The notes beneath the pieces were generated by a model, which was not told where the DNA came from, did no database searches, and saw only the letters and a list, made by a program, of their open reading frames with translations. This document shows, one piece after another, positions 2,863 to 63,200 of a DNA stretch of 64,000 nt. The stretch lies in assembly GCA_043228905.1 (NCBI GenBank), contig JBHGNT010000003.1, positions 25,172,001 through 25,236,000 of the forward strand, given 5' to 3'. The stretch's first letter is position 1, and each line of letters opens with the position of its first letter. The DNA comes from Azolla caroliniana (lineage: Eukaryota; Plantae; Polypodiophyta). The position numbers and the translations under genes were made by a program.

Positions 2863-4083
2863 GTGGTATTTGACTTGTGCACATGCACCTCAGGGATGAT
2901 TTGTAGTTCAGAAGTATAGCAGATGGGGCTTCAAAATATGTCGCTACCCATGCCGTTGTGGGAGGCCAAAACTGTGTCGCCCTATCGAACCACCGTTGAC
3001 CTTTAATAAGGACGTTTGACAAATGACAGACAGCATATGGCCGATCTGTAACCCTTCATATATGGCTGATCTGTTTTGGCTCAGACAACCTCTTGGGTTT
3101 GTGTATCATAGTGGCTGCTGTTAGCTTCTTGAGTACTTGCCAGCTGGCTGCTGAATTTGTGTGCGCCTTTGGGAGTAAGGGTAGGCATGTGAGTGCAATT
3201 TCTGGCAGTTGAGCTCGTTTAGTGGACCCAAAATTAGGCAAGTTCAAGGGTGGTTGTTTCATGGTTTATCTCAAGCCTTGTTCCAAAAGTTCTCACACAA
3301 CGGCTTCTGGCTTGGGAAAATACACCATTTGGGCACTCAGCACGATCATACACTTGCTTGCTGGAGCTCAAAGTGTCTATCATACTCTTGAGCTTTTTGT
3401 CACCCAGATTTGACCTTGCATTCGTGTTGCTGAATTACTATTCAGCATGTTTCAAGGCACAGCCATTGGAAAAGATGGCTCAAGACAGTCAGATGGTACT
3501 ATCGGATGGGATATCAGATTCAAAGATTCAAAGATGTTCCAATGCTATCGCCCTGATAGAAAGAATATAATTGTGATAGGTCTGATTCTACTGTGATTCT
3601 GTCATGACTGGAGATGCAGATGACCGGAAATTGGTATCTAGCTACTATTCTATTGACATCCAGAGAGTTCTCCGGTTCATCTCTTTCATGAATGGAAGCG
3701 GAATAGGGAGGTGATCGGCTGAGGCTATTAACCGAAGTATTGAGTGATTCCAGATAATTATGCAAATCTGCTCATGAAACAGTTTGGTTAGTTTCTGTAA
3801 CAACCTCCATGCATGCCCTAAGTGAATAAAAATGGAAAGCCCCCTTTCTCAACAGGGGGCTGGGGCATTAGCTCAATTCATATTTCTTTTGGTTCCTATT
3901 GATATCCCATATTTGGGTTGCCTAGGCTTAATATGGGAGAAAATCATATGGTCGATTTGAATTCTCTTAAAAAGTATTTATAATCCTTCTCATAACTTAT
4001 AACATCGATGTTTGTATGATCACGTTTCAAAATCATCATTTTCCACATACATTTTCTAATGGAATTCTGTGTTAACATTCTAG

Positions 4084-23551: not shown

Positions 23552-26419
23552 AAACAAAAAACACCAATACACATCCACATACATACATAATACACATACA
23601 TATACATTATTTGATTTTTATTCCTAGTATATAAATTATGCAAGAGAAATCCCTCTAAATCGCCATCATTGTCACTCTTTTGATAAATGAGAGAATATTT
23701 TGTGATCCTCCAACAGAAATTGACCAATTTATATATACAAAGTTATTAATTTTTTGAGATCTAGAAGATGTTAATAGACCTACAAAAAGCCATTATAGAG
23801 CTCTTTCTCTTTGTTATGCGAAAGGTGGCTACAAGAACATTGATGCATATACATTTTGACACCCTTTGCTTCTAATCAATTGTTCTAAATTTGAGGAAGA
23901 AAATTTTCCATTAAAGACTATGGAAACTGATATGGCTAGTACAATTTGGATTGTTCTTGGTGTTCCAATACTTGTTTTGTGGTATTTGTTTGGCTTAAGG
24001 CATTTCAATCGTGATATATCTTATAGTAAAGGCTTTTTTTGTAGCCAGTTTGTAATTACTTATATTGAATATCCTGATTGATTATAGAGCAATTTCCTAA
24101 AAATTTGTTCATGTTTGTTACTTGTTAACTCATTATCTCACATTTCTCCTTTTTCTATTCCCACTCCCTCTATGAGCCATATATTCAAAAACTATATATG
24201 TACATACACACACACATAGAGAGAGGAATGAATGCTTTGACTATTTCCAGAAATGTGGGGTGTAATGGAAATTTTGGAAAGTAAGAGTTGTCAGTTGGGA
24301 ATGTCATGAAGATTTAGGTATATTTAGTTATGAGTGATGTTCTTAATTGCATGAAGGTAGAAAATGATAACAATTGATTTGCCAAGAAGAGTGGCGCTTT
24401 GTTTGTCTATTTGTGAAGAGGGATGTGCCATAAAGGATTAGCTTACTTGGCATTCATCAAATGTTAACAAGGCTTGGGTATTATGATATATACTTGTGGA
24501 GATGAAACAATATTATATACTATTTGTATACTACCTCTGGCCTTTTATTAATACCAATGGAGCATATGTTTTATGGAAAAAAAGAGAGGCTTGGGTATTA
24601 TGAGCTCTAGTGCATCATATGGATTACACATGGTCTCCGAATTTTGGCTTCATAATTTGCATATCTCAACACTTAATGTGCTTTGTAAACCAGAACCCAA
24701 CGGCCGAAATATGAGGTTCTCCAAATTTTGAAACACCATTTTGTGTCATTGGGATCCATCCTCCAAATCACCTTAAAATGTTTATGACAACCGTATATGA
24801 ACATTTTAAGTGACGCCATTCCAAAAACAAGTGCGTGCATGCACATAAAGAGAACTTGGCCTTTATAAAATATCATATGTGGTAGGATGTTTTGTGATAA
24901 TATATGTATATCTATCAAAGATGTGTCGTCTTTGAGATACATTTGAAACTAAGATGTGGACGGTGACAAGTGCGTGTCTAAAACATAGAATTATATAATG
25001 AGTCAAAAGGTTAGTGAGGCACGACTTTTAGGATTCATTCATAACCAATGTTGAAGGATTCACATGCCTCTTAGATTAATTCATGGCCAATCATTATGGA
25101 TTGACATTCATGGATCAAAAAGAGAGAGAAGAGAGTTTAATGGATTAGAAAGATTGTTGGACGAAAAGGGAGAATGAAATCTACATTTAATTACTGAATA
25201 AGAATAATTATATTATTTTCCATGAATGAATACCCTAGAATGCTCCTGATTTTAGAGAGAAACACAAGTGTCTTGTGACTTTAGATAGACAAAAACAATT
25301 TAAGAGTTGTGACAACGAAACATATGAGTTGTGGGTGAAGTAGAAAGAGAATTTGATCGATTGAATACATTAACTCTTTTTTAGGAAGGATGAGGTCGAT
25401 CTTTTCAATATTTTATTGTTGAGAGAATTGAGATTAGCATTATGAAGCAATTGAGATAGTTTTTTTTAAATGATCCTTCTGATTTTTTGCATAAAAACAC
25501 TACATGGTCTAATGGCACGAACTTTGGACACAAAGAATAAGCGGCCGAAGCCATGAAAGAGAAAAGGTTACAAATAATAGAAAGAGGAAAGGCTAGGAAT
25601 GCTATGAGAGAACAGAGAAAGGATATGTTTGTTCTCCTATCTAGCATGAAACCCTTTTCACCTCAACATTGGTTCTCTATATATTTCTAAAGTTGCTTTC
25701 ACTACTCAATGTAGGAGCTCGGAGCATAAAAAACATTGCAATTGTCTTCATCGATTCCTTATAAGAAACTGGTTGTGACCTATATTGATTTGCATTAGGT
25801 GACAAAAAAAGGAACCAAGAGTCGGATGGACTAGAATAAGAAGAATGATCTCCCTCCCATATTCAACATTCAAGAAGTTGTATAAGGATCAATGCATGAA
25901 CTTATGCTGTTAGAAAAATGATTCCCGAACTTTGGAAATGGGTCCTTGGGGATTGTAGGAAAATCACTACAAATCCATCTTGACCATTTTCTCGCTAAGC
26001 CGGCTTCCTTGTGCCAACAATCCTAAGGCCACTTAACTATGTGCAAAGTGTGGCCATGTAGTCAAACAAGGAATACTTGTGCGCTTCCAAAATGCGTCAT
26101 GGGATTGATTGAGGCTCCACGAAAATACACTAAAGACACTATTTCCTCAAGTGGGATAGCTTTTATGCCTACATGTCAATGCACTAGGAGTTTGACAAAG
26201 AAAAGAGTGGTTGGCAAGCACTGTCACTAAACGAATATATGAAGCTTTTGAAAATGGGCCACTGACCGATTGGGGGTTGATCCTAGGCTCATCCCTCTTC
26301 GTGGGTTGGTGGGTATATATATGGGCGGGCGGGCAGTTGGGCCACGATGTCTCGAGGGACACATTGGCATATGCACATGGCATCAACATGGACATTCACA
26401 TGGCCACAAAAACACAAGC

Positions 26420-27243: not shown

Positions 27244-28468
27244 ATCATCATCATCGTCGTCGTCGTCATCATCATCTTCTTCTTCGAGACCCTATCAGAG
27301 GTCTGATAAGCTCAAGGACGTTTTAAAGAGCTATAACGTCCCTTTCGTTTGGACAAGATTTCATTCTACAGTAAATTCTGCCGAGTTTTTATTCTCTCAT
27401 CTCCGATCCCGTAAGTACATTTTGATTATCGAGAAGGGATCTGCGAGATTTAGACTTGAGCTGTCAAGGAGATTTAGCTTATTCATAATATCTAGCGGCG
27501 TATGCACACAAATATGTCTAAATCTGTACATATACAAACCATGACTTCATCTGAAGAAGGATATACACGTATTGAAACCAATCTTCATGATTCTATGATC
27601 GATTCTTCATAGATCTTGTTTGATCGCGGATTTTGCTTCAGCAACAGTATCAGGATTTGTGAATGCTTCTTTCTTCACCTCAAGAAGAGAAAATTTCATG
27701 TCCATAAACAGATCTATATAAACAGGATCTCTTCTTCATACATCTTCTTTCTCTCTCCTGGATCAGACGGTATCAGAATTCGTGGAAATTTTGTTATTTA
27801 TTTGCTTATTCGACAGATGGAAACTCCTTTATAGAACCTATCTCTTGCACAATCATCAGCACCAACGCGTTGTTGAGATTTTATGACTCCATTGATTACG
27901 TCAAGAATTATGAATATTGTGGTAATGTCTTGTCGAATAGATCCTATATGCTCGCCTCTTCTTTGTAGATATGGTTTATCTTCTTCTTCTTCTTCAAAAA
28001 CATCAGAATTGGTGGAGATCTTCACTTCATATCAAGACTCTGACGATATCTGGGGAAGAAGTTTCTTCATAGATCACTATTTCTCTTCTGCTTAAGCAAC
28101 GTCATGATAATTTTGTTTTTTGGAGATCTAAGGAAATGTTGGTTACTTATTAGTAAACTTTTTCTCTTTTAAAAAGGTTTTCTTCATAGATCTACTTCCT
28201 CTATTCTGCTTAATCAGCAACATTAGGATCAATAATTGATTGATTAGTTACACTTATTTCTCATTAAAGAGAGCTATGCACCTCTCTTCTTCCAAATAGT
28301 TTCTCATTGTCTTCTACATGTAGAAAGATTTTAGATCTTTACTTCCTGATGTGTATTTTAGTAACTGCTAATTCGAATTCCTTCGTTTCTGAATAGATCT
28401 ATTCTCCAAGATAGATAGTTACTCTCTCTGTCTCTCTCCACCTTTTTGGTCAGAAAATTCCTTTCAGC

Positions 28469-31400: not shown

Positions 31401-34400
31401 GCGCTAGATATGAATTGAACAGTTATAGCATTGTCTATGAAAGGCCAAAGAGATCTATGAGATTGAATATGGCATCTGTGTGAGTCTTATAGGATGTCTG
31501 GTAAAATTATCTAAAATAGGGTTGACTATGCATGGGTACAATTAGTAAGAGGTATAAACTTGACTTTTATTAAAATACATGGGTATAAAATAAGGGGATA
31601 GAGTATAGAATAAATAAATCTGAAATTGGTAAATTGTGAGTGGATCAGCCCACTAGAGAAGTGCATCTCTATATTACATTTAAGAATGCCCCAAAGTGAA
31701 ATGCTTTATTTAACATAAGGAAGTTTATTTTAAGGGAAATTTTTATCAAGACTCACAGCTTTTCTAGAATTCCCTTGAGATCGTAGGTTCTATATTCTAA
31801 CTTCACATTTCTAATGTTTCAAATGCCAAATTACGCTAAACTTGGGTTTTTTTAAACACGATTTCAGATGAGAACTCGACTCATTGCTCCTGGGGGTGAA
31901 GCTTTAGGCGGAATGCTTGGTTGCTTTAATCAAATGATTCAGAGAGAGGGCTTTCTCTCTTTATACAAGGGTCTTTTTCCAGCTCTTCTAAGCATGGTTC
32001 CCTCTGGTGCAGTTTTTTATGGAGTTTATGACATACTTAAAGCACAATATTTGCAATCACCAAAGGCACAAAGAGAACTACAGAGGCTTATTATGGAAGC
32101 GAGAAGAGAGAAATCAAGTAGCAATACAGATGGTGTTATATCTCATGAAAATAATAATGTTAGCCCTCAACTAGAAGTGGGCCCAATTAGAACTCTTATA
32201 TATGGTGCAATAGCGGGAGCATGTGCAGAGGTTGTTACTTACCCACTTGAGGTTGTAAGAAGACAACTTCAACTTCAGCAATCAACAGCTAAAATAGGAT
32301 TGCTTGCAGCCTTTCAAACGATCGTGGATCGAGATGGATTTGGTGCTCTTTTCTCTGGTGTAACGCCGAGTACCATTCAGGTTTATGTTCAAACATTGAT
32401 TTCACTTCATTTTGTGTTTTGGCTTTTTTGTCTCTCAGAAATTAAAATACCTCATGGATGATCAAGACGTTCAATTTAAGAAAACCATATCTACTGTCCA
32501 TGGTGGTGATCCAAGGCTATTCCAAATCATTATTTGGAATTCTAATGCAAAGATGTTTAATAAAGGAAATTACCCTGTATTTACAATTCTCGATGCTATT
32601 GTATACTCCACTATTATACACAAACTTTCCCAGGCAAATTGGTATTTAGCCAGCTCTCTCCTTCTTAACATATTCACCCTCTTTTCATCCATCCTTCACC
32701 TCAAAGCGTAGATATGCATGATCTGCTGCCAAGCCAATAGGTCTATTAGAGATAGAGAACTCTGTTATTTCGGGTATGAGATGGAGAAACCATTATATAT
32801 CAGAAATCCATGTACACTTCCCAAGGGTAGAAGTATGTGCGATATTTTTGCTACTTCACTCATATCTTGAGGTTGCTGCTTTAGACCAACTTCTTCTGCC
32901 ATGACTTCTCCACACATAGCTTTGCCCACGTCAAACATGGTTGTTTGTTCATCATTATGTTGTGCACTGAAGTCTCCTAATAGTACTAGACTCCCGTAGC
33001 ATCAAATCTGATGATATTATTATATGATGGCAGATATGATGATGTTCCAAGAGGCACAAACCTCGAGTAGGCAGGTGGGAAGTAGCAAGTTGCTCTATGT
33101 AGTTCTCTAAGATTCCCACTTTTGATTTGTATCCACATTATCAATGTCTATTAAAGAAGTGATGACTGGGCTTGGTGTCCAAGGTTGGTTGTTGGTGTGG
33201 TGAAATGAAGTTATGACAAAGTTTATTGAGTGCAGTGATGTCCATGATCTTGTGATGGTATAGCCCATCTGCCTTACATCTTGGTACTCACATCATTTAT
33301 TGAATGGTCGTGGAGTCAGTGTAGAGGGAAGCATACGTCTTTCTGATGTGGTTGAGAACTGGCATCTACTCACAAAACTACATTCAGACTTTTCTTCACA
33401 TAATTTGCAGAATCTTTTAGCTCTAGGTATACAAAGTTCTTGTCCTGCCTCAATCTCTAGTTGGTGAGATGAAACTTTGAGGTTTCCTATTGCTTTGTGA
33501 GCACCCTATGGGGCATGTAGACATCCATGTATTTCGATCTTTGTACAAATCCATCCTCTGAAAAGTTCTTGAAATGATCTTTGTAGTAGGCTACCTTTTG
33601 GGGAAGTCTGAATGCATATAATACATATATTCATGACAAAGAGAGTTTAAATGCAAGGAGTTTTGGTAGGTGACGTTCCCTTGGGACAGAATCCAGCGTT
33701 TGGGGAATAAAGAAAAATAGAGGGTGACTTGTCAGGCACATAGGCCTTGGCCTTGTGGATGACAATCTCATCACCCTCTCGTTGAAAATATCCCGCCATT
33801 ATAGGTAATTTCTTCACTTTAGAGACCTTTCCAGTTTGGATCAACCTAATGCTAGAGATCTTTCAAAGACAAAAACTACAATATATCTAAATTTGAGAAG
33901 CTTACATGCATAGGTGATGAGATTCTTTAGTCACGTCTTAGGCTATTTCTGTTTACCTTTTTGTGTGGTTAAATTAGTTTGGTTTGGTGTTCTCAAACTT
34001 GAGACACCATTTTAAGTGTAATCACTTATTTGGTCTTATATGCCATTTTGGACTCTTAAAAGATGTTAATATCTTTCTTTCTCTCCCAATTAACTCTAGG
34101 TTCAATATTAAGATTTGCATGGATGTTATTTAGTCTCATACGTCACTTACGCATTTTAGAGACACTAACGTAATATTTTCATTTCGTTTTTCTTCAATCA
34201 GCTGTAAGTTTAATAATATTTCTTTGTTCTCTTATGCTGTTGCTCATATTTGAATAGTGTTTTGCATGGCCATCTTTCATTCTTTCCCTTCCATGATATA
34301 GTTTTTGTTTGCTTGTCTTTGTTTCTCTCCCAATCTTCTATCACTAGACTTGTGGGTATGGCATTGAACCACATCACTTTATTTTTTTTCTCTCTCCAAG

Positions 34401-34499: not shown

Positions 34500-36779
34500 A
34501 AATATAAAAGACATTATTCAGAGATTCAAGAAACAAAAAGCGACGTTTCCTCTCCGAAACGAAGAAAAACTTAGGCCTCGCAAGTTTCATCTTGTTTTTA
34601 TGATGTGCTATTTATTCATTTTGTGCATAGAGGAAAACCAAGTAATCTGTGGGTGTAATATGTATGAACCTATGATATAATAATATATATCATATCTCAC
34701 GTGTGAACAGGTGAAGATGGTTTAGTTTTTGTATCATTTTAATTCAATGGTTTTGACCACTTTCTAGAACTATGTAGGAAGCCTTTCTTGAGAGGTTAAA
34801 ATGCTCTCACTGTAACCCTTAAAATGCTATTTGTTTATATTTTGAGACCACATGGAAAAGCTTCAGTTATGCTTTATGAGTTTCAGGCTTTGCATCACCA
34901 AGCAAGTGTATTTGTATGACAGAAAATATGGGATATTTATCTTTCTTGATACTTGCATGTATCAAAATCTATCTGTTCTTCGATATAAACTGAGAATTTT
35001 CTAGTCTTTTCTTAAAATGTATGGATAGCAAGAAACGTGTTACCAAGTTTTGTGATGTCTCTCTAGATAATTCCTTGTCAAATTTCATACAAATAATTAG
35101 TGGATCAATTATTAATGAAGATCAGGATGATTGATTAATTTGATTGTTTGAAAAATGAGTTTTGTATGAGTGTCCATGCTCATACATACAATTAATGTAA
35201 TATGATGGCTTGGCATGCTAGTGAGAAGCCTTAATGATTTGATAGTAGTGACAATAGCAATGGCTACATTCATTTAAGTTGAAGTAGAGTCCACCTTGAA
35301 GTTGACAAGCACTTTTGGGTTCCTTGGCTGCTTATTGTGGTCCTACACATCAAGCTTCTACACATCCTCTCAACATCCAAGTGAGTGAAGTGGGAGCACA
35401 CAAATCAAAATTGACATTTGTAAACGTCTATACATGAATGTGTCATTAATAAAGTTGGTTGATTTATTAAAGTTGTACTTATGCCATGTTGACATTCGAT
35501 GCAAGCTATCTTGTTGTCCATTTGATCTATTTAGAAATAATAGTTTTCAATGGGCCACATCTCGAGAATTGCCAATGCTCTTTCTAAACCCAAGTATGGT
35601 GGAAAAGGAAGGCACATAAAAGGATTTGACAGAAGCAATAGTTCGCAAGTAGCAACAATTGAGACCATTTGGATCAAACTAGGTAAAATGATGAAAGCTT
35701 TGAGTCCATTCCTATAGGATTCTAGGTATGATAATATATCATAATCCCTTGGGATTCTAGGTATGAAAGACATGCAATTGATTGTGTGCCCATATATCAT
35801 CCAAAGTTGTAGGCCTTGCCCAAAGCCTTCCTACCTACACACAAAATGTCCACAGGTAGATCATTACATTCATTGACTATAGAGGCCCAATAACATCCTA
35901 GAGCCGAAGCATTTGTGGACTAGACATTACTATGCATTGTGCTCCACTGTAGAGCCGCAATTCTCTCTACAACTCTTACACTGAGAACTGACAAAGTGTT
36001 TGTCCTCCCATCAAGGTGACTGAAGCAATCATTGTATTCATGAGAAATGGATTTGCACTTGAGTATGCCTCCTCTCACATAACTACATAACTACATACCT
36101 ACATACATTACATAAATGCTCGAGTCTAACTACTACCAAATATTAAATAGGCCAAGTGAGGGAATCGTGGGCACAAACGGTGCAAGTTGCTCAATTGAGG
36201 GTGCGTGCGATCTACACCGTTCGATGTGGATAAAAAGTTGACAATGTCTGTCATGAGGAGCCCGACTCAAAGCTTGTCGTGTCTAACTTCAAAAAATTAA
36301 CAATAATAAAATGACAAAGTAAAAATATTCTTATTAATAGTGAATGGCCTAGTAGTTAGAGTTATTCTTAAAATGTGATAGGTGCAAAGTTCATAACTTT
36401 TTCTTTGACTTCTTTTTCCTCCAACTTCTTTCTTTTTGGTTTGCTTCTTCTTCGACTTCTTTCTTTTTTAGGGTTTTGACATTTAGTTTTAGGGTATGTA
36501 GTCACTTTACAAATAATTTACAATGAAGGGTACCTAATAGTGGTATTGAATTCAACACCTTAATTATTAAATGTGTTCATTTTTTACATCACAAGTTTGT
36601 AGTTGTAGGCACACAAGTTACACCTCATGGTATTCACTCCCAATCTTAACTCTTAGAGAAGGCTCAATATTATGCTTACAAATTACTAAAGTTTCTCATA
36701 CAAATTTAACGGAAGTTTTTGTTCATCTATTCACATGAACTAAATTGTTTTTGCATGATATATAAAGAACTACACATGG

Positions 36780-37500
36780 ATGGATTTGACCTTGGTGATG
36801 AATGATATAGAGAATTGAAGCCTATTGTAGATGAGGTGCCCTAATAGTCTAAAAGATATATCTTTATATCATGGTGTGCATCCCATAGAATGGTTACATT
36901 TCTACTAAGGTGGCAAATCTTCCTTGTATTTAGAATTGGTTTTTTGGAGAAATAATTAGTTGCAAAAGGTTGTCCTCTAAACACCCTATTGTATGCAATT
37001 ACTTCTCATCCTTTACTTGCTTTATACTTGCAAGGTGTAAATTTGTCATCATCAAACACTTAACCATATGTTGTTGATGATAGCTTTGTGCCCTAATATA
37101 TAACTAAACATTTGCAAACTCTGATTGATGCAATTGAACTTTTTGCTGATGTATTGGAAATTTGTAAGGTGGCCTATGCATGGATTGCTACATATGGTGA
37201 ATCAAATTTTCTTTCATTGATTTCTTAGCCAAGAATGCACATGAGATTTTTAGGTGGAATGCCTTCAAACTATTTTGGCAACATGATACAACCAAAAAGG
37301 TATTTATGTAAACTCAAAAGTGTTATTTATTTAATGCTTGTCTAGTTCAAAATAGCTTGAGTACACATATCCATGACTTTGTTTGGAAAGTGATTTTGTG
37401 GTTCAAAACAATATAATTTGGAAGCAACCACTAGCTAATTTGTGGAAATACAAATCAAAGAATGGTTTCCTTGTCTACACAAGACGGGCTTGGGAATAAA
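36780..37500 (+). mobile_element. Degenerate L1-type LINE reverse-transcriptase remnant
   Basis: KGCPLNTLLYAITSHPLL at ~36965-37018 (the QGCPLSPLLF motif), followed by YVVDDSF at ~37066 (YADD-like). Many stops. Confidence 0.55.
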
Positions 37501-38585
37501 TACTTTGTATGATGTAACTCTTATGACCTTTCTTTATAACTAATGGAAGGACAATTTGTTTTGAAAAAAAGAAAGAATGGTCTCCTTGACATTTTCTTAG
37601 AGCAAAAGAATTAACAATATTGTCATCATTGCCCCCCCCATGCATCCATTGTGATTTGCTCACTCATTGTGATTGAGAATGCATTATTATATTCACTATC
37701 AAATAGACAAGAATGTATGACTTCCGTTTGCCAACTTCACCAAATCAATAGGGACGACACTTGTATGTACTTGTCCTAACACGACTCAATTAATGAATAG
37801 AAGTTGGTAGAGAGTACCATTGTTAATTATGCGTGTTGATCAATTTCAAAGGTAGGTGGTAATCCACATGAAAATTGACAAGAGAGTTCCAACCTTCCAC
37901 CTATAATTCAGAGTTTGGGGACGTCTAGTTGCGAGTTCAGTGTACTTCATCCAAATAGCCATTGAAACGACTCATAAAACAATTCATCCCTCATGTCTGG
38001 CAACGAAGTCATTTGGAGGCTGGAACTTGTCCGAACATGCCAAATCTTGCTCATTTGATTGATCACTATCGTCTAAAACGAAACCCAGAGGCGTGCCATC
38101 GGAACAAGCAGAAACTTAACTTTATCCACATGCTTTTTAGTCCGAGAGACATGAGCAAGTCAATAAACGATTGAAATCATTCATTACATGGGATTAGTCA
38201 GATTAGTAAAAATTTAGATTATTACATGAGAGTACATTGCACAGTATGTATGTAGTGGTGATGATATTGGCATACAATATGTATCTTAATAATAGAATCT
38301 GTAAATCACAAAAGAGTGATTATTGATAGGTATAAACTTATATGTATATATGTTAGATGATCAAAGCAAAAAACTTAAGTAACACCCTAAAACCCTAAAA
38401 CCGTTTGATAGGGTTTCAATTTGTGCAGCCGTCTTCTCTAATTTCCCCACCCTCGCTCAACACAGAAACTAAAATTTCAAATTTCTCTTCATATTATATA
38501 TGGTTCAGAGTCGGCCATCGCCATCGCCATCGCCATCGCCATCGCCATCATCATCATCATTCTCATCATGAAGAAGAAGCTCGGC

Positions 38586-41506: not shown

Positions 41507-42584
41507 CATAGAACGTAATATTCATGTTCGTGCAAGCATTCCAACGTTTGGAAACGAACACGTTTGAAATGGGAAAAATACGTGCTCCTTTTTTCTTTCT
41601 TTTTTTTCATTTATTACCATTACAATATAGCTCACCCTAGTGGTAAGGAGTCATGCTATTGCTGTCTACGTCTTGGGTTCGATTCCCAATTTTCTCATCT
41701 CTTTTTCTCTCTCATTAGTACCATGTCATAGCAAAATTTCATACTAGTGTTATAATAGTTTCTTTCTTTTATTTTATTATTATTACAACTAAGCACAACC
41801 TAGTGGTAAGTTGTTGTGCTACTATTATTTGTGACTTGGGTTCAATTCCCAACTTTCTCATATCCTCTTGTTAGTGTCATGGCAAATTTTTATGTTAGTG
41901 TCATGTTCCTTTTTCTTCTTTTTCTTTCTTTCTTTGTTATTAGAAATTAGCTCACCCGAGTGGTAAGTTGTTATGCTACTACTGCCTATGTCATGGCAAA
42001 TTTTTATGTTAGTGTCATGTTCCTTTTTCTTTCTTTCTTTGTTATTAGAAATTAGGTCACCCTAGTGGTAAGTTGTTATGCTACTACTGCCTATGTCATG
42101 TTTTCTTCTTATTCTCGAATATACGTTTTATGAGTTTTTGATCGTTTCTTTTTTTCTTTCTTTGTTATTAGAAATTAGGTCACCCTAGTGGTAAGTTGTT
42201 ATGCTACTACTGCCTATGTCATACGTTTTATGAGTTTTTGAATGTTTGATTATAATTTATAATGACATATTTTGATTCAATCTCTATAGTTCATACTCAT
42301 TTTTTTGTAAAGTTCTAAAGTGAGGATGATAGAGATGTCTTGATTCGCATCCCAAAAGTATGCATGTGATACAATGCAAATATTGCAACCATACTTATGT
42401 TGGTGGTTCACAATGGATTAGAGTCCACTTATTAGGATTGAGAGTGAATCAATATATAATATAGACCCTAGTCAACCCAATCCAACTTGTCAATCCAATC
42501 CAACTTTGAGATGATTTACCATACACGTTTGATTGAATCATTCTCGAATGCGAATGCACGTAGATACGTATGGTTCATTCTATG
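41507..42584. mobile_element. Non-autonomous hAT-like DNA transposon, copy 2 (inverted relative to copy 1)
   Basis: Termini CATAGAA...TTCTATG. TSD CATACACA (41499-41506) vs CACACACA (42585-42592), 7/8 match. Reverse complement of 19830-20808 plus extra internal duplications. Confidence 0.87.
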
Positions 42585-51778: not shown

Positions 51779-52687
51779 TGTTAGTAATGCATGATTGACA
51801 AGTGGTAGAAATTCGAATCCAAGTGGCAAGCATGCATTAGGTGGCTTGCAAAGAAGACTAGAAATATCTCAGGGCTAACTAGTTGTGAAAACATAATATT
51901 GGCGTGATAGTTATGCATGATTGTTGCTAATCATGCAAAGAACTAGGAATATCAAGGATGTTACTCAACATGATTAGTGTGTGTATATATATAGTCTCGT
52001 ATTGATATGGTCTAATTGCTAAGTGACCTTTTTCGTAGCATAGCTAAGTGACCTTTTTCGTCATTGACATTTTTACCCTTGTGGAAATATTGATATGGTC
52101 TAATTGTTTGGTAGCATAGCTAAGTAGCCTTTTTTGTCTTTGACATTTTTACCCTTGTGGAAATATTGATATGGTCTAATTGTTTGGTAGCATAGCTAAG
52201 TAGCCTTTTTTGTCTTTGACATTTTTACCCTTGTGGAAATATTGATATGGTCTAATTGTTTGGTAGCATAGCTAAGTAGCCTTTTTTGTCTTTGACATTT
52301 TTACCCTTGTGGAAATATTGATATGGTCTAATTGTTTGGTAGCATAGCTAAGTAGCCTTTTTTGTCTTTGACATTTTTACCCTTGTGGAAATATTGATAT
52401 GGTCTAATTGTTTGGTAGCATAGCTAAGTAGCCTTTTTTGTCTTTGACATTTTTACCCTTGTGGAAATGTATAGAGTTTTGTCTTCTCCTTCTACCTTTG
52501 TGAGACTCCTTCCAAACCTTCCCCTTCTCCCTTTTGAAAACATCCCTCCTACTTATTAATCCACCACCCTCCTTGCTTGTATCAATAAACATTTCCACTC
52601 ATCCTTGCTTTTATCAATAATCCTTTCTTGGATTTTCTCTCAATATCCCCATTCTCTTGAAAGAGCACATCATTTTTATGATCCAAC
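51779..52687 (+). mobile_element. Putative LTR (TGTT...AACA) containing a tandem-repeat array
   Basis: Starts TGTTAG and ends CCAACA, followed by ATTTGGTTATGA (degenerate PBS-like). A gag zinc-knuckle-like peptide lies downstream (~54100). No second LTR or TSD found. Confidence 0.35.
52001..52468. repeat. 76-bp minisatellite: 5 identical units plus one degenerate unit
   Basis: Unit ATTGATATGGTCTAATTGTTTGGTAGCATAGCTAAGTAGCCTTTTTTGTCTTTGACATTTTTACCCTTGTGGAAAT; GTGGAAAT recurs at 52081, 52157, 52233, 52309, 52385, 52461. Confidence 0.96.
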
Positions 52688-54400: not shown

Positions 54401-57400
54401 GAGTACGAATAGGGCTTGTAAACCATCATTATAAAGAGGAAGAACAAACAAATGCGTCACAGTATAGTAAAAAATCCTTCAAACACATAACGTCCATACC
54501 CAACTCCTAGTTTGAGGAATCCCAAAAGAGGAAACACACTCCTTCAATTGACAAATTATTTGAGGAATCCCACAAGCGGAATCACACTCCTTGACAAATT
54601 ATTTGAATGCTTCAACTGAAAGTATGGAAAATACAAAACCTTGTTTGCCTCTTTGTGAGGGGCAACATGTGAGGGACATGATAATTTTTCATCCCTTCAC
54701 AATATACAACCTTGAATACAATCTTATGTTTGTAGTTATTAGATTATTTAAAAATTGGCCTATGATTTCTTGTTAGGATGACCTTTCCTATGTGTACAAG
54801 TGTACACTCAGAATAAGACTTGAAAATGATTTCCTCCACAATGAAAAGGAGAATAAGACTTACCGAGTACAAGTGTACACTCAGAATGTACACAAACAAA
54901 AAGGTAGCCCAATCATGGATGAAAATTCTATAACCATCGAGTTGGAGGAAATTTTACTTGTCATATGAAGTGGATATTGATGAAGATTACCTTCAAGATT
55001 ATTGCTTATGAGTGAACTTCATTCTAGCTCGTCCTCTAAAATGAGCCATACAATTCACTCATGACCTTGATGAATATTCTATCATCAGAATTTACCCCGT
55101 TGGACTCCCATTTTGTGACATGAATGCTCTTATCCTCTATAGCTTCATGGTAGATCCATGTTGTTCTAAACCTAAACCCTTAGACATTAGTACCTCATGT
55201 TAGGCACTAGGGAGTGTACATTCCACACACAACCTAACAAATGTCTAGGATGTAAACCAACTCCTTTTCTTGCCTTGTGAAAGTCCATGGGCATTACTCT
55301 TAAGCTTTAACTCACACAATCGCTAGTGTGACTCTCTTTCACACAAGCATTAGTTGTGATTGATTTGTTGTTCCATTAGGAGAATGCAATGATTGGTGGG
55401 GATTGATGCCACCATATCCAATGTGTAGGGTCACTATTGTGTATAGTGACCACTTACATTAGTAATGCTCATGGACAATAAGGCCTATAGTAATCTTGTC
55501 AGAATTATATATCCCCTAGCAGGATTATTGATAATATACTTTCTAACTAGGGATGGCCTTTAGCAATAACTCTTTGTACATAGTGAAAGCCTTATCTAAT
55601 CACCTTCCCAGGAGATCGTGATGGATGCCAAACCCACATCTTGTCAGAATCATTGTATCTTCTAACGTGATTGATATGACTTAAGCAAAACTTGTCATGT
55701 AAATATTTCTTTAGTGTCATTAGTACCATAGTTGTCTATCTGACACTTACGTTGTCCCCCCCCCCCCCCCCTTTCCAATTTTACATTGTAACCCACATTA
55801 TTTGTTTTTCGTGTCACCAATCATTCCCATTAATTTTTATGGGTTATAGTACATTTGTTTTCACCTATGCTTGTTTTTGTTTCTCTATGTTCTTTTTCTC
55901 CTTTTCCTATTTTCCCTTTATAGAATTCCTTAAACTATTTGTCCCTTATTCTCTTGCTCTTTTCTTCCCTTCGAGAGAGACAAAGACAGAGACAAAGAGA
56001 GCCTAACATGGTAATGGTGTATAAAGGTAATATGTATAAACCTTTAAATACCTTTCCCAAGTGTGAAAAGGACATAAGTATAATTTGGTTACATAGGAAG
56101 TATAAAGGCGGTTTACAAAGGCTCTCCTTAATTGTAAGTTAAGAGCTTATTCATGTATCCATGGATTAATGGAATTGAAGACGTGCTTGTGATTTCTTAT
56201 TGTGTCATTCTTCTATCAAGTTCCCAAGTGTGGTAATGCCTCATATTTTTTCAAGTATCTGATCAATCTCATGCAAGTAATTAAGTTGTAGAGTAAGTTT
56301 AGAGTTTGCTTTAGTTGCTAGTCTAGCATGAGTGGTTGGAGGGTAAATATCGACACTTACCCTTGCTTGTCTCATCAACAAGAGGGTAAATTATGGTACA
56401 CCCCGCATACCAACTCAAGGTGTTTCTCAATAAAAACAATTGAATAAGAAGTAATGTTTAATAAGGATATTGAAAGAATTACATCTTTGGCACCACCGGG
56501 GATCAATGTGTGTATCGGGGGACTCATCAAGGTTTTAGAACAAGAGATACATGGATAAATATGTAAACAAAGACACATCTGAGTGGACAAAGAAAATTTA
56601 ATGCACAATGGTAAACTTAACTAGGAAACATGCCCATTATAACTTTAAGAAAAAAACAATAAGTATACCAGACAATAATACATCAATCGGCAAACCTTTA
56701 CCAAAATATGGTTGTACACCATATGTTCACTTGACATTGGAAACAATAGAGAAAATATAGTTATGGATTGCATTGTTTCTCTACCTCAAATACAAAGATA
56801 TGGGATGGCATTCATTGACTAACATAATTGGTTCCTTGCGTGCAGAAGCTCATAGCCACAATCGGCTCTATCGGATAACAACAGAAATAGAACGAAGGTT
56901 TAATGGAAAGCTTGGAAATATATAGAGAACACAGGAGACACACAAAGAGCAGGACAGTAAAAATTCTATTTCAAAAATCACTCTGTAAACTCTGTACATA
57001 CTAATGTGCTCGAAGAGCACTTTTATACAAGTCCTTAAAAGGACTAACAGAAGTACTGACAAGTACTTCAATGCTTGTACTAGGCTAGGATCGTAGGCCT
57101 CTAACAACCTACCGGTATCACACCGATATGGCTCTTTGATCCGATCCGGGCCTAGCGGACCATTCTTCATCCAATCTGCCTATCGGCTTGTTCACTGCTC
57201 TTGCCCATGTGGAATTTGTCCACTGAACACTCCCTCTGAAGCTCAACTTGAGGTCAGTTCGTTGTGTCAGTCCTTGTCGGTCCTTGCCTACAGCTTCTCC
57301 TGGTGTCTTCACACCTTTCTCGCGCCGCTCAACATGTCCGGTTCCATGCACCTTGACCATCTCGATCGACTTGTTTGCTCAGAAAGCCCATCTCAACTCC

Positions 57401-57799
57401 TTCGTTGTTATGACTCCGGTGCTTCTCGACTCGTCGGCTCCTCCGTGTCAGTGTTGACTTCCGCTACCTTCTTGTCCACTTGGCCTTCAAGTGATTTGGC
57501 TCTTCAGCTGAATTGATTGCCTCCGATTCATTCCGGCTCTTTTCCGAATTAATTGTCTCCAATTCGTCTTCAATCTTGAGGCCCTTCACAACATCAGACC
57601 ATGTTCGAGTTTTGGCCTTTATCTTCGGGTCGGCTCTGTCCTTCTTGACTCTGTTGTGGTTACCACCGCTTTTTCCGACTTTATCGGACGTGCCAAATTC
57701 TTTTTTTTTTTAAACAAAATATCCTTCCATTAGTTTTAGAAAAGGCACATCAGCTACAATGTTATGTTTTCCGTAGAGATTGTGCAACTATTGAAGCCA

Positions 57800-59595
57800 A
57801 TCTATCCCACAACACCTCCATCCATCACAAAATCTAATTTCATTTTTGTATGTACAAATAATTCTCCCATGTTGCCACATGCTTTCAACATACCAAAAAA
57901 TATCATCATATAAGGTAAGAGGAAGCCACAAACATTTGAGGATAAAATTGCATAGCATCCTCATTCTTATCATGCTTAGTATAGCCAAATAACACGGTAG
58001 TCCATGGTACGATATCTCCAACCAACAATAATTCATCAAAGCTTTTGGGCTTCAATTATTGCTCAACAAATGCAAGCATTAACAACGTTGTAGTGACTGT
58101 CGATGTTGATTTGAAGGGCTTGAATAATCCAAAATGCATTAAACAATTGGTTGGTTGGTGGCTCATAGGTTTCACATCCATTGTTTAGCACACCCGAATT
58201 GAAAGATCATTGAATGTTTATTGGGTTATTTCAAGCTCGCCACATTTAGCATACATGTCCACGAAAGCCTTCCCAAGCTCAATATTGTCTTCCAACAGTC
58301 TCGTACTCACGATTTCATTGTGAATTTCTATGTTGTTATCAGCCACCAGTACACTGCCACAAGCCTTTAGCAAACCTACAAGGGTGTTTGCATCCGAAGA
58401 AAGACCATCATTTTGCATTTGTTCAAAAGGATTCCATGCTTCCTATCCAAATCTATGCCGGGAATATCTTGAAATTAGTGCATTCCAAGAAGCCACAACC
58501 CGAACCGGCAGCCCCTTGAGCACTTTTTGTACTTTTCCTCCTTCACCACATTTGACCTACCAAAGCAGTATCTAGTTTCTGAACTTTACCGATCAATCTT
58601 TCACTTACAATTTCACTGTGAATTTGCTCACCTCTATGTAAAGCCCCTATGCTTGAAGAAGCCTTCGATATGCAAATAGAGGTGATTGTATTTGGCAAGC
58701 AGTGATTCCGCTACATCCTCTTGAAATAAGTTTTAGCTTTGCTTCCTTCCCCTTGCGGAACTTATCCAAAGATCAAAACATTCCACAAACACAATGTCAC
58801 GAACACAAAGCTCATCAAACACTTCCTGCGGTTTTCTCTAGCTCACCACATTTTGCATACATATCCACCAACACATTGCCGAGCTCGACATGCTTGTTTA
58901 AGCATTTCATATGGATAATCTCATGGTGGATTTGTTTCCCCCTATCTATTCCACATGCCTTCAAGATGCAAGTGAAAGTGATACCTACCTGTTTGAAACA
59001 CTTCAATGCACCTTCATTGTGGCCATGCTGAGCATATCTTGAGATCAATGAATTCCATGAGACCAAATCTTGAATTGGAAGTTCATCAAACACCAATTGA
59101 GCTTTTTCCAAATCATCGCATTTGGCATATATGTCAACAAAAGTATTATCAAGCATAACATTCTCTTCCAATAAACTTTTACATCACGATGCCAGTAAAC
59201 GTATACAATATCTGCCTTTAGTCTTCGTACTTTCTCAATGTCTCCTAATTAAAATGTACATATTGTTGTTGGTTGATTGGTTTTAGAGACAAATTGCACT
59301 TTGTATTTTGGATTGGATGTATGAGATTCCATGAATTTTTAGCTTCATGTATCCCATTGTATAGTGACACATCTTTGCCCTTCACTAAGGTTATTTATGA
59401 AAACCTTGCCCCTGGGTGATAGTAGTCCAATTACTGCAATAGCATCTTCAAAAATGCCACATTTAGCATATGCATCAACTCCCTTTCAATGATATCATTA
59501 TGGATTTCTTGCCCTCTTCTAATAGCTTTTAGGCTTATGCATGTCTTCAAGGTAAAAATATAGGTCACAAAATTCAGCATAGTCCCTTTCAACTA
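57800..59595 (-). pseudogene. PLS-class pentatricopeptide-repeat (PPR) array, degenerate
   Basis: Repeated motifs such as LGNVLVDMYAKCGELEK, DNTFVDIYAKCDDLEKAQLVFDELPIQDLVSWNSLISRYAQHGHNEGAL, ITFTCILKACG, LVGLLKACGS and DIVPWTTVLFGYTKH. Many frameshifts and stops, no introns, no E/DYW domain seen. Confidence 0.9.
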
Positions 59596-59599
59596 CTCT

Positions 59600-60271
59600 T
59601 AGAGTTCTATAGACCGATGTATGTCCCAAAGCATAAGTAATAATAGTTATACATTGACACATACCTCATGTCAGTGGTGGTTGATACCTCCAACGTATAC
59701 CACCATTAACCATGCAGAATACCTTCATCTTTTCCCATCTCTTCTTAAAAACCTCTTGCTTTCGAAAGACTACATCTGGATCACCTTTGCTAGCACCATA
59801 TTCTCCTTTTAGTGTATGCACTAAGGTCATCCAAATCTCCTTGACTACATCCACAACATTTCATTGAATTTGCTAAAATATCCACAAAACCCATATGATT
59901 ATTGAACTAATCGTCTCCCAAACCAAGCCATTTTGGACTAAATTAATAGGCATATATGGCGACACTTCCTCAACATATCGACCTCTTGTATATAATGCAA
60001 AGTTAACATTTTCTTTTTCATAATCTTGTACCTCACCCTTAATATTAGCTCACATAACTGCCCCCCATTTATATATTCTAGAGCCATAAACCTCATGCAA
60101 GAGACGTAAAAATCTTTTCCAAACCAATTTGGCAGCCATACATGACCAAAATAGCTGATGAAGAGACTCCACTTCTAAACCGCAAAAATTACACATCTTA
60201 TCCACTTCATTACAATACATCCAAGCTATAACAAGAACCGCGTTATTAACAATCAACCGCATAACAGGAAT
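59600..60271 (-). mobile_element. 5'-truncated L1-like LINE (zf-RVT C-terminal region of ORF2)
   Basis: CNFCGLEVESLHQLFWSCMAAKLVWKRF (zf-RVT-like), then IIWVLW and KEIWMTLVHTL. ORF ends ~59666. Confidence 0.8.
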
Positions 60272-63200
60272 TTGGATGTGCCGAATTCTTTAGTCGAATC
60301 GGCTCCGTTTTTCTCAGTTGCTCCTTCGATGCCTTTACCTCTCCTCCCCCTCAAGTGCGGCACGTCGAGATGTTGTAACCCAAGCATCTCTGAAAAGTGT
60401 TGCAACTTGTCGGATCCGAGTGGCTTGGTGAAGATGTCGACAATTTGCCAATCAGTTCGAACATATCAGAGTTCGACTAAACCGTACAGCTACACCCGCT
60501 CGCACACAAAGTGGTAATACACCTCGATGTGGTTTATGCGAGCATGGAACGTGGGGCTCTTTTCAAGCTACATGTTACTCATGTTGTCACAATAGATTGG
60601 GATCGGAATCGGTACTTCGATCCGTAGGTCCTACAACAACCGCCAAAACCATATGGCTTCATCGGTCGCGACGGTAGCTCCTCAGTACTTAGCCTTAGAG
60701 CTTGACGTGGCCATTGTGGGGTGTTTCTTACTCCTCCACACAACAGTCGTGCTACCAAGAGAAAACATAAAGTCAGATGTTGACCGACGATCCGACGCAA
60801 CACCGGCCCAGTTGACATCAGTATAGTTGACTAGTTATTCGTCTACACCGTGTTGGTACAACTGTCCTCGATCCTTAGTGCCGCTTACATATCGCAGTAG
60901 TCGATGCGTGCACAAAAGGTGCTCGATGGTTGGTCACTCCATGAATTGGTTGATCACTCCGATCGGATAGTTGAGTTCGGGTCGGGCTATAGTCAAGTAT
61001 ATGATGAGGCTTCCGACTATCTGTCAGAACCGTTTCTTGTTGCAGGCCACTCCAGAGTCGGGACGTAGCTTGAAATTATGGTCAAGGGGTGTCAAGACCG
61101 GTCAGCAATCCGTCATGACATATCCTTTGGCCACTAATTGGGCCTTGTACTAGTTGACCAAATCGTCGGCATTATATTTTACCTTGTATACCTACCTACA
61201 ACCGATCAGTTTGTAGTGTCGAGGAGGATCAACTAGGTCCCAAGTATCGTTGGCATCAAGTGTCCGGATTTCTTCCTCCATAGCAGCTCACCAATTCGTG
61301 TCTTTTGCTGCTTCTACGTAGCTCTCCGGCTCATGCACTTCCGCCACCTTTGTCATGTACGCGTAATGATGTGCCATATACTCGTTGCACCCGTATCGCA
61401 TCACGAGGTTCTTATGACAGGTAGATTGGTGGAGCTTCTGATTCGCCGATTTTAAGGCGCTTTTGGCCGACTCAGACTTCGTTTCCAAAGATTCTTCTTC
61501 ATTCTTTCCGAAATCAGACTCGCTTCAATATGACTTTTCTTTGTCGATGTCGTATTCCAACATCTTCTTCCGCGTGAATCATCTCCTCGGTTCCTTGTGT
61601 GGGGAGTGCACAGTTGTCGGCTCATCATTTGACTGGTCGTCCAGACTCAATCTCTCATTTGGCCCACTTAGCTGGAATGAGATTGGACTCTCTTCTAGAG
61701 CTCCGATGTCTCCTTCTTCTTCCTCCCAAATCATGTCAGGCTCACTGGCCTTATCCTCAGTGATCGAGTGGTCAGAGTTGTTGGAGGTCAGAGTCGGAGT
61801 CGATAGAGAGTACCATGATGCCGACTCATCGAACTCGACATCTCGGCTTACTCGAACTCGTTTGGTCCGGGGGTTGTAACACTTATACCGCTTTTGTTCA
61901 TGTGAGTAGTCGACCAATATACGACCAAGATGCGTAGTTGTTCCGGTCAAGCTCTTCGGTAGGAAGTGAGCTCGACATGCTTCTGTCCATTTCTCTCTTC
62001 TTCTTGTCTGTTCTTACCAAGTGTTACGGTTTTTCTTACGTAATCGTTTATCGGCAGCAAAGGATTCTCAACGCTCACGCTCTGATACCGTGTAAATTGT
62101 TACGTGCAGAAGCTCGTAGACACAACCGGCTCTATCAAATAGCAACAAAAATAGAACAAAGGTTTAATGGAAAGCAACAGAAAAATACACAGAGAACGCG
62201 GGAGACACATAGAGAGCATAATAGTAAAAAATCTATTTCAAAAATCACTCTATAAACTCTATACATACTAATGTGCTCAGAGAGCACTTTTGTACAAGTC
62301 CTTAAAAGGACTGATAGAAGTACTAACAAGTACTTCAATGCTTGTAGTGAACGACAAACACTAACTACCAAAAAATTGCCTATGTACTAGGCTAGGATCA
62401 TAGGCCTCTAACGGCCTATCGGTATCACACCGATCCGGCTCTCCATTCAGGATATCGATCCGATCGGTCTTCATCCGATCCGGCCCATGTTGAGCTAGTC
62501 CGGTCATTACAAATTAAAACCATGTTAATATCTCTTGAATTGTGTTATCGAACAATGTGCGAGCTATTCTAACTTTACAATTTATTGGTTGAAGAGAACA
62601 AGTCAAGAATTAAAAATTAGGCGAGTGGATTGAGTTGTGTGTGATGTGCTCATGATTATCTGGGTGAAGAAACACATCTTGAAATCTGAGTTCGTTTATT
62701 TTGATTTGTCATTACAAATGTGCTAGTATTATAGGCTACATTACGTGATTATCGACAGCTTGGAAGGTGTAGAGCATCGTAGTCTAGGAGATATGGTATA
62801 CAAATATGCTTGGCTATTGTATATACACATTACATCGGCCATCATGTGGGTCTATGGGATTTCAATGTGGTCTCCATTCCTCCAACTTTTGTACCTCGTT
62901 CTTGTGTTCTTATAATACCAAGGTGTATCTCTAAAGGCTTGTGGGCCTCTAGAGGACCTCCTCAAAATGCAACCACCTCAAACTGAGGACAATGTTATTA
63001 GCATAACCTTATGGGACTCTAAAGGCTAATTCTGATGGTTTGGGTATAGGATGAGTGGAAGTCGATTATCCTGTGACTTTGGACAAACCCATAAATACTT
63101 GTGCCATTTGTGCAATTTGGGATCTGCCAATGGTGCTTTACATTTATCCCTAGAGCAATTGTGGTTAACCACATGAAAACCATTGTTTTAGGTTCTAATG

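What the first reader, a model, noticed from the sequence alone, without database searches (positions are those of the whole stretch)
57684..60291. Apparent LINE-mediated 3' transduction of a PPR array, nested in a Copia element
Seen: the Copia 3' internal region is split, and both ends of the gap carry the same ~20-mer: TCGGACGTGCCAAATTCTTT (57684-57703) and TTGGATGTGCCGAATTCTTT (60272-60291). The three mismatches are all CpG transitions from consensus TCGGACGTGCCGAATTCTTT. A T11 run (57701-57711) abuts the left copy, i.e. a poly(A) tail on the minus strand, and the target ends in CTTT/AG. On the minus strand the ~2.57-kb insert reads: 5'-truncated L1-like zf-RVT region (60271-~59600), ~1.8 kb of same-strand PLS-PPR repeats, poly(A). 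Established: a variable-length TSD, 5' truncation, poly(A) and a T-rich nick site are hallmarks of target-primed reverse transcription; L1 3' transduction is well known in mammals; plant PPR genes are mostly intronless and thought to have expanded by retroposition. Inference: a LINE read through into, or stably carries, PPR sequence and copied it here. That would be a concrete route for spreading RNA-editing-factor repeats in a PPR-rich plant genome.
Basis: partly seen in the sequence, partly recalled or inferred. Interest (0 to 1): 0.85.

Follow-up and report, generated by a model that had tools for sequence, protein, structure and literature searches.

The report
Fern LINE with mRNA-scrap cargo bay
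A fern jumping gene (a LINE) inserted here carries broken pieces of PPR genes inside its own untranslated end, and its relatives carry other gene scraps in the same slot, likely picked up from messenger RNA during copying, a kind of gene capture my searches did not find described for plant LINEs.

Summary
The insertion is real. It is a 5'-truncated L1-like LINE with a 20-bp target-site duplication (17/20 identical) and a poly(A) tail, inside a deleted Copia element. '3' transduction' is the wrong label. The last ~50 nt before poly(A) are the family's own 3' terminus, found twice more in this window as tail-only insertions with their own TSDs. The PPR sequence (three broken pieces plus linkers) lies between the ORF2 stop and that tail, so it is inside the LINE's 3' UTR. 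Among 15 related loci that reach the ORF2 stop, UTRs run from ~150 to ~2,300 nt where a tail is reached. They hold sense-strand gene scraps: mostly PPR, but also Rab-GDI, kinesin-like and RAVE pieces. In L008 (open ORF2) the cargo crosses five junctions where genomic contigs stop and putative RNA contigs continue, and its pieces are out of mRNA order. L009 shares two cargo pieces with the window. Best reading: the family captures mRNA fragments into its 3' UTR by reverse-transcriptase template switching and then propagates them (inferred, ~0.75). The PPR cargo here is non-coding, so a role in PPR family expansion is unshown.

The parts
57684..57703 (.). Target-site duplication, copy at the 3' (poly(A)) end of the LINE
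   Evidence: 17/20 identical to 60272-60291
57701..57711 (-). Poly(A) tail (T11 on +); the first 3 T overlap the TSD
   Evidence: 53-66 contigs per run leave the stretch at 57701 into unrelated flanks (table 7)
57712..57759 (-). Conserved 3' terminus of the LINE family (core AACTAATGGAAGGATA)
   Evidence: 81-85% identical to tails of L002-L005, L008, L012; matches 37527-37578; alignment
57826..58068 (-). Cargo piece C: end of S motif, P motif, part of L motif; 57863-58068 shared with L009 (84%) and 38 nt with L001
58186..59218 (-). Cargo piece B: about three S-P-L triplets plus an S motif, with frame changes, stops and two short deletions; the best named relatives are fern PPR proteins (best identity 55% among the 120 listed)
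   Evidence: motif classes (P, L, S) assigned by eye from recalled consensus
59219..59400 (-). Linker of unknown origin inside the 3' UTR (others at ~58069-58185 and ~57760-57825)
   Evidence: no PPR match; no Pfam match for this one and ~58069-58185; covered by several diverged contigs per run (table 3)
59401..59665 (-). Start of the 3' UTR and cargo piece A (L motif, partial S motif); 59665-59477 shared with L009 at 89%
59666..60271 (-). 5'-truncated LINE ORF2 C-terminus (zinc-binding region to stop at 59668-59666), with 3 internal stops and short in-frame deletions
60272..60291 (.). Target-site duplication at the 5' junction; its last bases also fit the LINE sequence (microhomology)
56826..57234 (-). 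Host Copia 3' LTR, preceded by a purine tract
   Evidence: 86% identical to the 5' LTR, with large indels
57235..57683 (-). Host Copia 3' internal region downstream of the insertion
   Evidence: joints to 60344; the frame reading KEFGTS is open for 79 codons from the left TSD
60292..62089 (-). Host Copia internal region, internally deleted (gag start, integrase SH3, RT ends, RNase H; primer-binding-site-like sequence near 62085)
   Evidence: SH3_retrovirus E 2e-10, RVT_2 E 1e-6; RNase H and PBS read by eye
62090..62511 (-). Host Copia 5' LTR
24470..24603 (+). Tail-only (~100 nt) insertion of a variant of the same LINE terminus, with an exact 17-bp TSD
37457..37590 (+). Tail-only (~96 nt) insertion of the same LINE terminus, with a 19-bp TSD (2 mismatches)

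Best explanation
This is a 5'-truncated copy of a fern L1-like LINE inserted into a Copia element, and its PPR pieces are cargo inside the element's own 3' UTR, likely captured from mRNAs by reverse-transcriptase template switching. SHOWN: the order ORF2 stop, then cargo, then conserved family tail, then poly(A), bounded by a TSD. The tail works as an insertion terminus on its own. Relatives have the same frame with different sense-strand cargo, and part of this cargo is shared with a relative. INFERRED mechanism: ORF2 nicks a T-rich site (TTCTTT/AG), primes on the poly(A) behind the tail and copies the LINE RNA. It sometimes jumps, at short homologies, onto other RNAs (host mRNAs or sister LINE RNAs) and back. 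When a jump back to ORF2 leaves a full-length element, the scraps become a heritable part of the UTR. There they decay neutrally and are reshuffled in later rounds. The copy in the window would be a later, truncated daughter of such a loaded element, perhaps with a further switch of its own. PPR scraps likely dominate because PPR is a very large fern gene family and because cargo already aboard offers homology for further jumps onto PPR mRNAs (inferred, untested).
For: (1) Tail: shared by 6 of the 15 loci that reach the ORF2 stop. Four of these six share one 3' flank and are probably one insertion, so there are three contexts. A variant tail is in L009, a second tail type in 5 loci, and 3 contigs end before any tail. 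Two TSD-flanked tail-only copies lie in the window, and 53-66 contigs per run end at this terminus with diverse flanks. (2) Cargo: PPR by Pfam in L006, L009 and L001 (L001 below cut-off); GDI (E 4e-38 and 6e-18) and Microtub_bd (5e-6) in L008; Rav1p_C (4e-5, below cut-off) in L015. No antisense PPR hit in 13 of 13 UTRs, and no Pfam hit in the minus frames of L008 and L009. In 7 of 12 UTR starts, the sense PPR score beat all 20 shuffles. (3) Spliced origin in L008: low-depth DNA contigs match 3806-3911, 4023-4129, 4444-4540 and 5022-5131 and stop there. Putative RNA contigs run across 3807/8, 3909/10, 4128/9, 4539/40 and ~5021. The first four contexts read AG|G. (4) Scrambling: one 840-nt RNA-run contig carries three GDI pieces in the order 4775-4933, 5274-5363, 3726-3941. 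At 3726 the GDI mRNA and an alternative UTR meet the cargo at a shared CTTG. (5) Propagation: L008 has an open ORF2. Contigs with 0-3 differences tile its cargo in run X11 at depth 134-227, against ~12-27 for diverged donor-like contigs. L008 and L009 ORF2 are 99% identical (aa) yet carry different cargo.
Against: Intron loss cannot be tested on the window's own cargo, because PPR genes are mostly intronless, and no donor PPR gene was found (best 55% aa). The RNA route for this copy therefore rests on analogy with L008. No full-length sibling with the same UTR was found; only two pieces are shared with L009. The loci are short-read metagenome contigs of repeats and may be collapsed or chimeric, L009 especially, which holds a second ORF2 end. 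Run X14 is only guessed to be RNA. The intron letters were not displayed, and contig depth is not copy number. No TSD was found around any of the 8 loci searched, most of which may be 5'-incomplete. The tail shows no stable stem-loop (z 0.0-1.7), so stringent tail recognition is not shown. Five of 12 UTR starts did not beat all shuffles. No genome was available.
Confidence: 0.75

Rival explanations
1. Read-through (3' transduction in the wide sense): a source LINE that had lost its own tail was transcribed through a neighbouring PPR pseudogene and ended at a separate tail-only insertion downstream.
For: Tail-only insertions are common (2 more in this 64 kb). Piece B is a colinear ~1-kb run of motifs, and an intronless PPR gene would look the same as DNA or as RNA.
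Against: The UTR starts exactly as in L009 and, for ~20 nt, as in nearly all relatives. A later piece is shared with L009 and L001. No extra TSD was noticed at the PPR/tail boundary (self-comparison). Cargo in relatives is all sense, scrambled and, in L008, spliced.
Confidence: 0.08
2. One-off chimera: the template switches onto PPR mRNAs happened during this very insertion, and the cargo was never part of a replicating element.
For: Block B and the linkers have no counterpart in the 19 loci. Double template jumps by LINEs are documented (PMC2104539, abstract).
Against: Two pieces are shared with L009 in the same order. Linker positions are covered by several diverged contigs in all four runs (table 3). 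The cargo looks more decayed than ORF2 (a weak point, since no donor is known). This reading may still hold for block B alone.
Confidence: 0.1
3. DNA-level capture: PPR and other fragments entered LINE copies by break repair, gene conversion or a DNA transposon, and were then carried along.
For: Short homologies at junctions also fit DNA repair. PPR pieces cannot tell DNA from RNA.
Against: Five junctions in L008 are crossed by the cargo and by putative RNA contigs but not by genomic contigs, and no antisense cargo was found.
Confidence: 0.05
4. Assembly artefact joining LINE, PPR and Copia repeats.
For: No listed contig bridged the whole insert or its junctions (tables cut).
Against: The TSD with CpG decay, the poly(A), the T-rich nick site and the UTR start shared with an independently assembled locus.
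Confidence: 0.02

Closest known systems
L1 3' transduction (mammals; defined in PMC13317346, passages read)
   Same: LINE machinery moves non-LINE sequence; TSD, poly(A), 5' truncation.
   Different: Transduced DNA is genomic flank downstream of the element's own end. Here the cargo is upstream of the family's terminus, mosaic, and in a relative spliced.
Gene capture by Drosophila telomeric non-LTR elements (TART-nxf2; piwi and aub captures; PMC13534243, passages read)
   Same: A non-LTR family carries and amplifies host-gene fragments inside the element, including its UTRs.
   Different: Those are Jockey-type telomeric elements (clade recalled) with 140-235 bp captures, mostly of piRNA genes. 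Here a dispersed plant L1-like family has up to ~2 kb of multi-gene mosaic that differs between near-identical ORF2s.
LTR-mediated retroposition by microsimilarity template switches (PMC5131818, abstract) and maize Bs1 (PMC13317346, passages)
   Same: mRNA pieces, sometimes from several genes, embedded in a retroelement through template switches at short homologies.
   Different: LTR elements with virus-like particles. Here a non-LTR, target-primed element, with cargo confined to the 3' UTR behind an intact ORF2.
Bi- and tripartite chimeric retrogenes made by LINE template jumps (Magnaporthe, mammals; PMC2104539, abstract)
   Same: LINE RT joins copies of different transcripts in one TSD-flanked insertion.
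   Different: Described as individual chimeric insertions. Here the chimera sits inside a coding-competent element and appears to be inherited and amplified.
L1-like retrocopies in dicots (PMC4838847, passages) and plant L1 with a conserved 3' end (PMC3472496, abstract)
   Same: Plant L1-like machinery copies mRNA; some plant L1 lineages keep a conserved 3' terminus.
   Different: Those retrocopies carry no LINE body. The tail here has no significant stem-loop.
Pack-MULEs, Pack-CACTA and Helitrons (PMC13317346, passages; otherwise recalled)
   Same: Element families loaded with mosaics of host gene fragments.
   Different: DNA-level capture that keeps introns (recalled). Here capture is apparently from spliced RNA.

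Membership tests
L1-like LINE insertion (TPRT) | Variable-length TSD around the insert | tested here: met
   20 bp, 17/20; control 0 of 1,986
L1-like LINE insertion (TPRT) | 3' poly(A), 5' truncation, T-rich nick site | tested here: met
   T11; homology starts at about ORF2 residue 1000 of 1215; target TTCTTT/AG
L1-like LINE insertion (TPRT) | ORF2 with APE endonuclease, RT and C-terminal zinc-binding domain in the family | tested here: met
   Exo_endo_phos in L007; RVT_1 and zf-RVT in L008 and P0004
L1-like LINE insertion (TPRT) | RT phylogeny inside the L1 clade; ORF1 type | not tested
   No reference RT set and no ORF1 recovered; 'L1-like' rests on domain order and poly(A)
3' transduction | Extra sequence lies downstream of the element's own 3' terminus | tested here: not met
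   The family tail follows the PPR pieces
3' transduction | A source element sits upstream of the same sequence in the genome | not testable with these tools
   No genome held
Retroelement gene capture by template switching | Captured piece flanked by element sequence on both sides | tested here: met
   Window, L008, L009 and the L002 group
Retroelement gene capture by template switching | Introns absent from the captured piece | tested here: met
   Met in relative L008 (5 junctions); uninformative for the window's PPR pieces; intron letters not seen
Retroelement gene capture by template switching | Microhomology at junctions | tested here: inconclusive
   One L008 junction (3726) shows ~4 nt shared; no statistics; window donors unknown
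Retroelement gene capture by template switching | Cargo propagated in several copies | tested here: inconclusive
   Shared pieces between the window, L009 and L001; high-depth near-identical contigs for the L008 cargo; no two full copies at distinct sites seen
Functional PLS-PPR retrogene | Open reading frame with start, motif array and C-terminal domain | tested here: not met
   Longest PPR-encoding open stretch 122 codons; stops and frame changes
Stringent-type LINE 3' end | Conserved tail with a stem-loop | tested here: inconclusive
   Sequence conserved; folding no better than shuffles in 6 of 6 copies

The most novel reading that the evidence does not exclude
This is a 'Pack-LINE': a coding-competent plant LINE family whose 3' UTR is a standing cargo bay for spliced mRNA scraps. 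Its PPR cargo acts as a homology handle that hands the reverse transcriptase over to intact PPR mRNAs, making PPR genes preferred retroposition substrates. This would help drive the fern PPR (RNA-editing factor) expansion, leaving PPR retrogenes that end in this LINE tail.
Probability: 0.2. Interest if true: 0.9.

Novelty: new variant of a known kind. Interest (0 to 1): 0.72.

Why it matters
Gene capture in plants is described for DNA transposons and LTR elements. A 2026 review of it (PMC13317346) has no whole-word occurrence of 'LINE' or 'non-LTR' (the plural was not searched). A LINE family that routinely loads, swaps and spreads multi-gene mRNA mosaics behind an intact ORF2 would add a new route for exon shuffling and pseudogene scattering. 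It would also give a natural record of template switching by a plant LINE RT. Ferns have very large PPR families (over 1,700-2,000 in two sequenced species, annotated from ORFs of 300 nt or more; PMC6786969, passages). Retroposition is the usual but unproven explanation for intron-poor PPR genes (PMC7650700, passage). A fixed ~50-nt tail makes the question testable by a simple genome screen. It also warns that some PPR counts may include LINE cargo: the window's 122-codon PPR stretch passes that length filter. Cargo might also seed small RNAs against PPR genes (inference).

Tried and rejected
No genome for the window, so no genome-wide BLAST, source search or direct look at the empty site. No RNA holder listed for the window stretch; this says nothing on expression. 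Tail pattern in viral contigs: 0 matches. ORF2 in prokaryote genomes: none of 52 candidates confirmed. Word search with ORF2 residues 560-830 returned only P0001 among 251 candidates. None of 150 profile-search relatives matched PPR proteins, so spread to other ferns is untested. Donor PPR gene not found among the 120 listed of 449 hits. Two linkers: no Pfam hit in 9 frames. Tail stem-loop: not significant. TSDs around 8 related loci: none convincing. Copia TSD: not seen by eye. I first took the purine run at ~60340-60355 for the polypurine tract and placed the insertion in the LTR; I dropped this once the LTR boundaries were mapped. In run X2 the middle of the L008 cargo was covered only by donor-like contigs; that is no proof of absence. 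Rows dropped: L011, L016, L018 and L019 do not reach the ORF2 stop. L003 and L005, L012 and L004 were left out as near-duplicates of L002. Earlier scan findings: none. Paper searches (listings only) showed no plant LINE family with mRNA-mosaic 3' UTRs. The library lacks most subscription papers, and no supplements were read.


Full report
OBSERVATION. The two 20-mers, the T11 run and the split Copia are as described. The match is 17/20, with three CpG-type transitions; none of 1,986 random 70-nt segments of the window reached 16/20. The minus-strand stretch 60271-59666 is the end of a LINE ORF2. It is 70% identical to P0001 and 95% identical at aligned bases to locus L008, whose frame is open for 1,215 codons with RT and zinc-binding domains. 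Relative L007 adds an APE endonuclease. The host is an internally deleted Copia (SH3 and RVT_2 hits) with LTRs at ~62511-62090 and ~57234-56826, 86% alike. Contigs of other family members join 57650/57652 to 60344 in 4 of 4 runs, so the two halves belong together, although a single 20-mer at the empty site was not seen directly. The best named relatives of the PPR piece are from the ferns Adiantum and Ceratopteris; I did not determine the species.

The last ~50 nt before poly(A) match window 37527-37578 at 85%. That copy, and a variant at 24.5 kb, are ~100-nt insertions made of tail plus A-run, each with its own TSD: 19 bp with 2 mismatches, and 17 bp exact. In public DNA runs, 53-66 contigs per run leave the stretch at 57701 into unrelated flanks. 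So this is the family's true 3' terminus, and the PPR sequence lies between the ORF2 stop and the terminus. The three TSDs begin AAAG, AAAG and AGG on the element strand, in line with an L1-type preference (recalled). The PPR part is three broken pieces with linkers of no known origin, with stops, frame changes and deletions.

THE FAMILY. A metagenome scan gave 19 loci, of which 15 reach the ORF2 stop. Six end in the window's tail (four share one flank and are probably one insertion), one in a variant of it, five in a second tail type, and three contigs end first. Where a tail is reached, UTR length ranges from ~150 to ~2,300 nt. L009 shares the first 190 nt (89%) and a 209-nt P-L piece (84%) with the window; PPR repeats within the window match each other at only 70-79%. 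L001, L006 and L009 have PPR mosaics; L008 has Rab-GDI and kinesin-like pieces; L015 has a weak RAVE hit. No antisense PPR match was found in 13 UTRs. Even the short UTRs look PPR-derived: 7 of 12 UTR starts beat all 20 shuffles and 5 did not. L008 and L009 have 99% identical ORF2 but unrelated cargo.

RNA ORIGIN. PPR genes are mostly intronless, so I tested L008. Low-depth DNA contigs match the cargo in blocks (3806-3911, 4023-4129, 4444-4540, 5022-5131) and then continue in other sequence; two joints are reported as 'skips 0' with unknown letters between. Contigs from a run guessed to be RNA cross five of these boundaries (3726-3946, 4023-4203, 4444-4566, 4949-5091). Four boundaries read AG|G, as expected for GT-AG introns; the intron letters were not displayed. 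One RNA-run contig holds three GDI pieces in an order different from the cargo. At 3726 the GDI mRNA and another UTR variant meet the cargo at a shared CTTG. Near-identical contigs tile this cargo in run X11 at roughly 6-15 times the depth of donor-like contigs. That fits amplification, but depth is not copy number.

MECHANISM. Shown: TPRT hallmarks, cargo inside the UTR, sense orientation, cargo pieces shared between lineages, and apparent intron loss and scrambling in a relative. Inferred: the RT starts at the tail's poly(A), jumps at short homologies to host mRNAs or sister LINE RNAs and back, and loaded full-length copies pass the mosaic on. The window copy is a truncated daughter. PPR dominance would follow from family size plus homology with cargo already aboard (untested). 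Confidence 0.75. Rivals: a one-off chimera (0.10; it may hold for block B), read-through to a separate tail (0.08), DNA-level capture (0.05), artefact (0.02). Main weaknesses: no genome, no donor gene, no full sibling, and short-read repeat contigs that may be collapsed or chimeric.

COMPARISON. It is not a 3' transduction: the defining feature was tested and not met. It works like LTR-mediated mRNA capture (PMC5131818, abstract; Bs1 in PMC13317346, passages) and LINE template-jump chimeras (PMC2104539, abstract). As a family-level trait it is closest to Drosophila telomeric element captures (PMC13534243, passages). Nine searches (listings only) showed no plant LINE with such UTRs. The passages read in a 2026 review and in a gymnosperm capture study (PMC13477047) describe none. 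The library is incomplete and supplements were not read. Also read: PMC6786969 (passages), PMC3472496 (abstract), PMC4838847 (passages), PMC7650700 (passages).

VERDICT. A real feature with a revised interpretation: a new variant of retroelement gene capture. The link to PPR family growth is an attractive but unshown extension, since this cargo is non-coding. Interest 0.72.

Noticed in passing
window 24470-24603 and 37457-37590: Two ~100-nt tail-only LINE insertions with TSDs; with the main insert that is three copies of this terminus in 64 kb.
   Followed up: yes
window ~36750-37450 (+): Heavily decayed RT-like remnant (read by eye; no relevant Pfam hit, no match to this family's ORF2) into which the 37.5-kb tail copy inserted.
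   Followed up: partly
window 45787-45146 (-): Older LINE ORF2 3' end (zf-RVT E 7e-5; about 30% aa identity to this family).
   Followed up: partly
window 56826-62511 (-): The host Copia is internally deleted (gag start joined to the integrase C-terminus; RT core missing). Its LTRs differ by 14% plus 12-40-nt indels and no TSD was seen, so it may be old or recombinant. Its pol frame seems to extend about 100 codons past RNase H.
   Followed up: partly
L009:3040-3220: A second ORF2 3' end plus UTR of another subfamily (94% to the L001 UTR start) sits inside the 3' UTR: a LINE-to-LINE switch or an assembly chimera.
   Followed up: partly
L008 cargo, joints to 5274: Contigs join 4819, 4856 or 4938 to 5274 with short stretches between. 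Some reflect the donor GDI mRNA order; others may be variant cargo arrangements.
   Followed up: no
L017:1500-1570: The second tail type ends in (CAAAAA)n repeats instead of plain poly(A).
   Followed up: no
L001:1013-1058: An inverted copy of the variant tail with a possible 10-11 bp TSD, upstream of the ORF2 fragment.
   Followed up: partly
window ~16500-23550 (+), ~28400-32500 (+), ~650-2870: An intron-rich nucleobase-ascorbate-transporter-like gene, a mitochondrial-carrier-like gene and a second Copia element (named by eye from translations, not by a library).
   Followed up: no
window 19830-20808 / 41507-42584 and 52000-52468: An inverted-orientation repeat pair (78-92%) with internal repeats, and a tandem array of about 76-88 bp period.
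   Followed up: no
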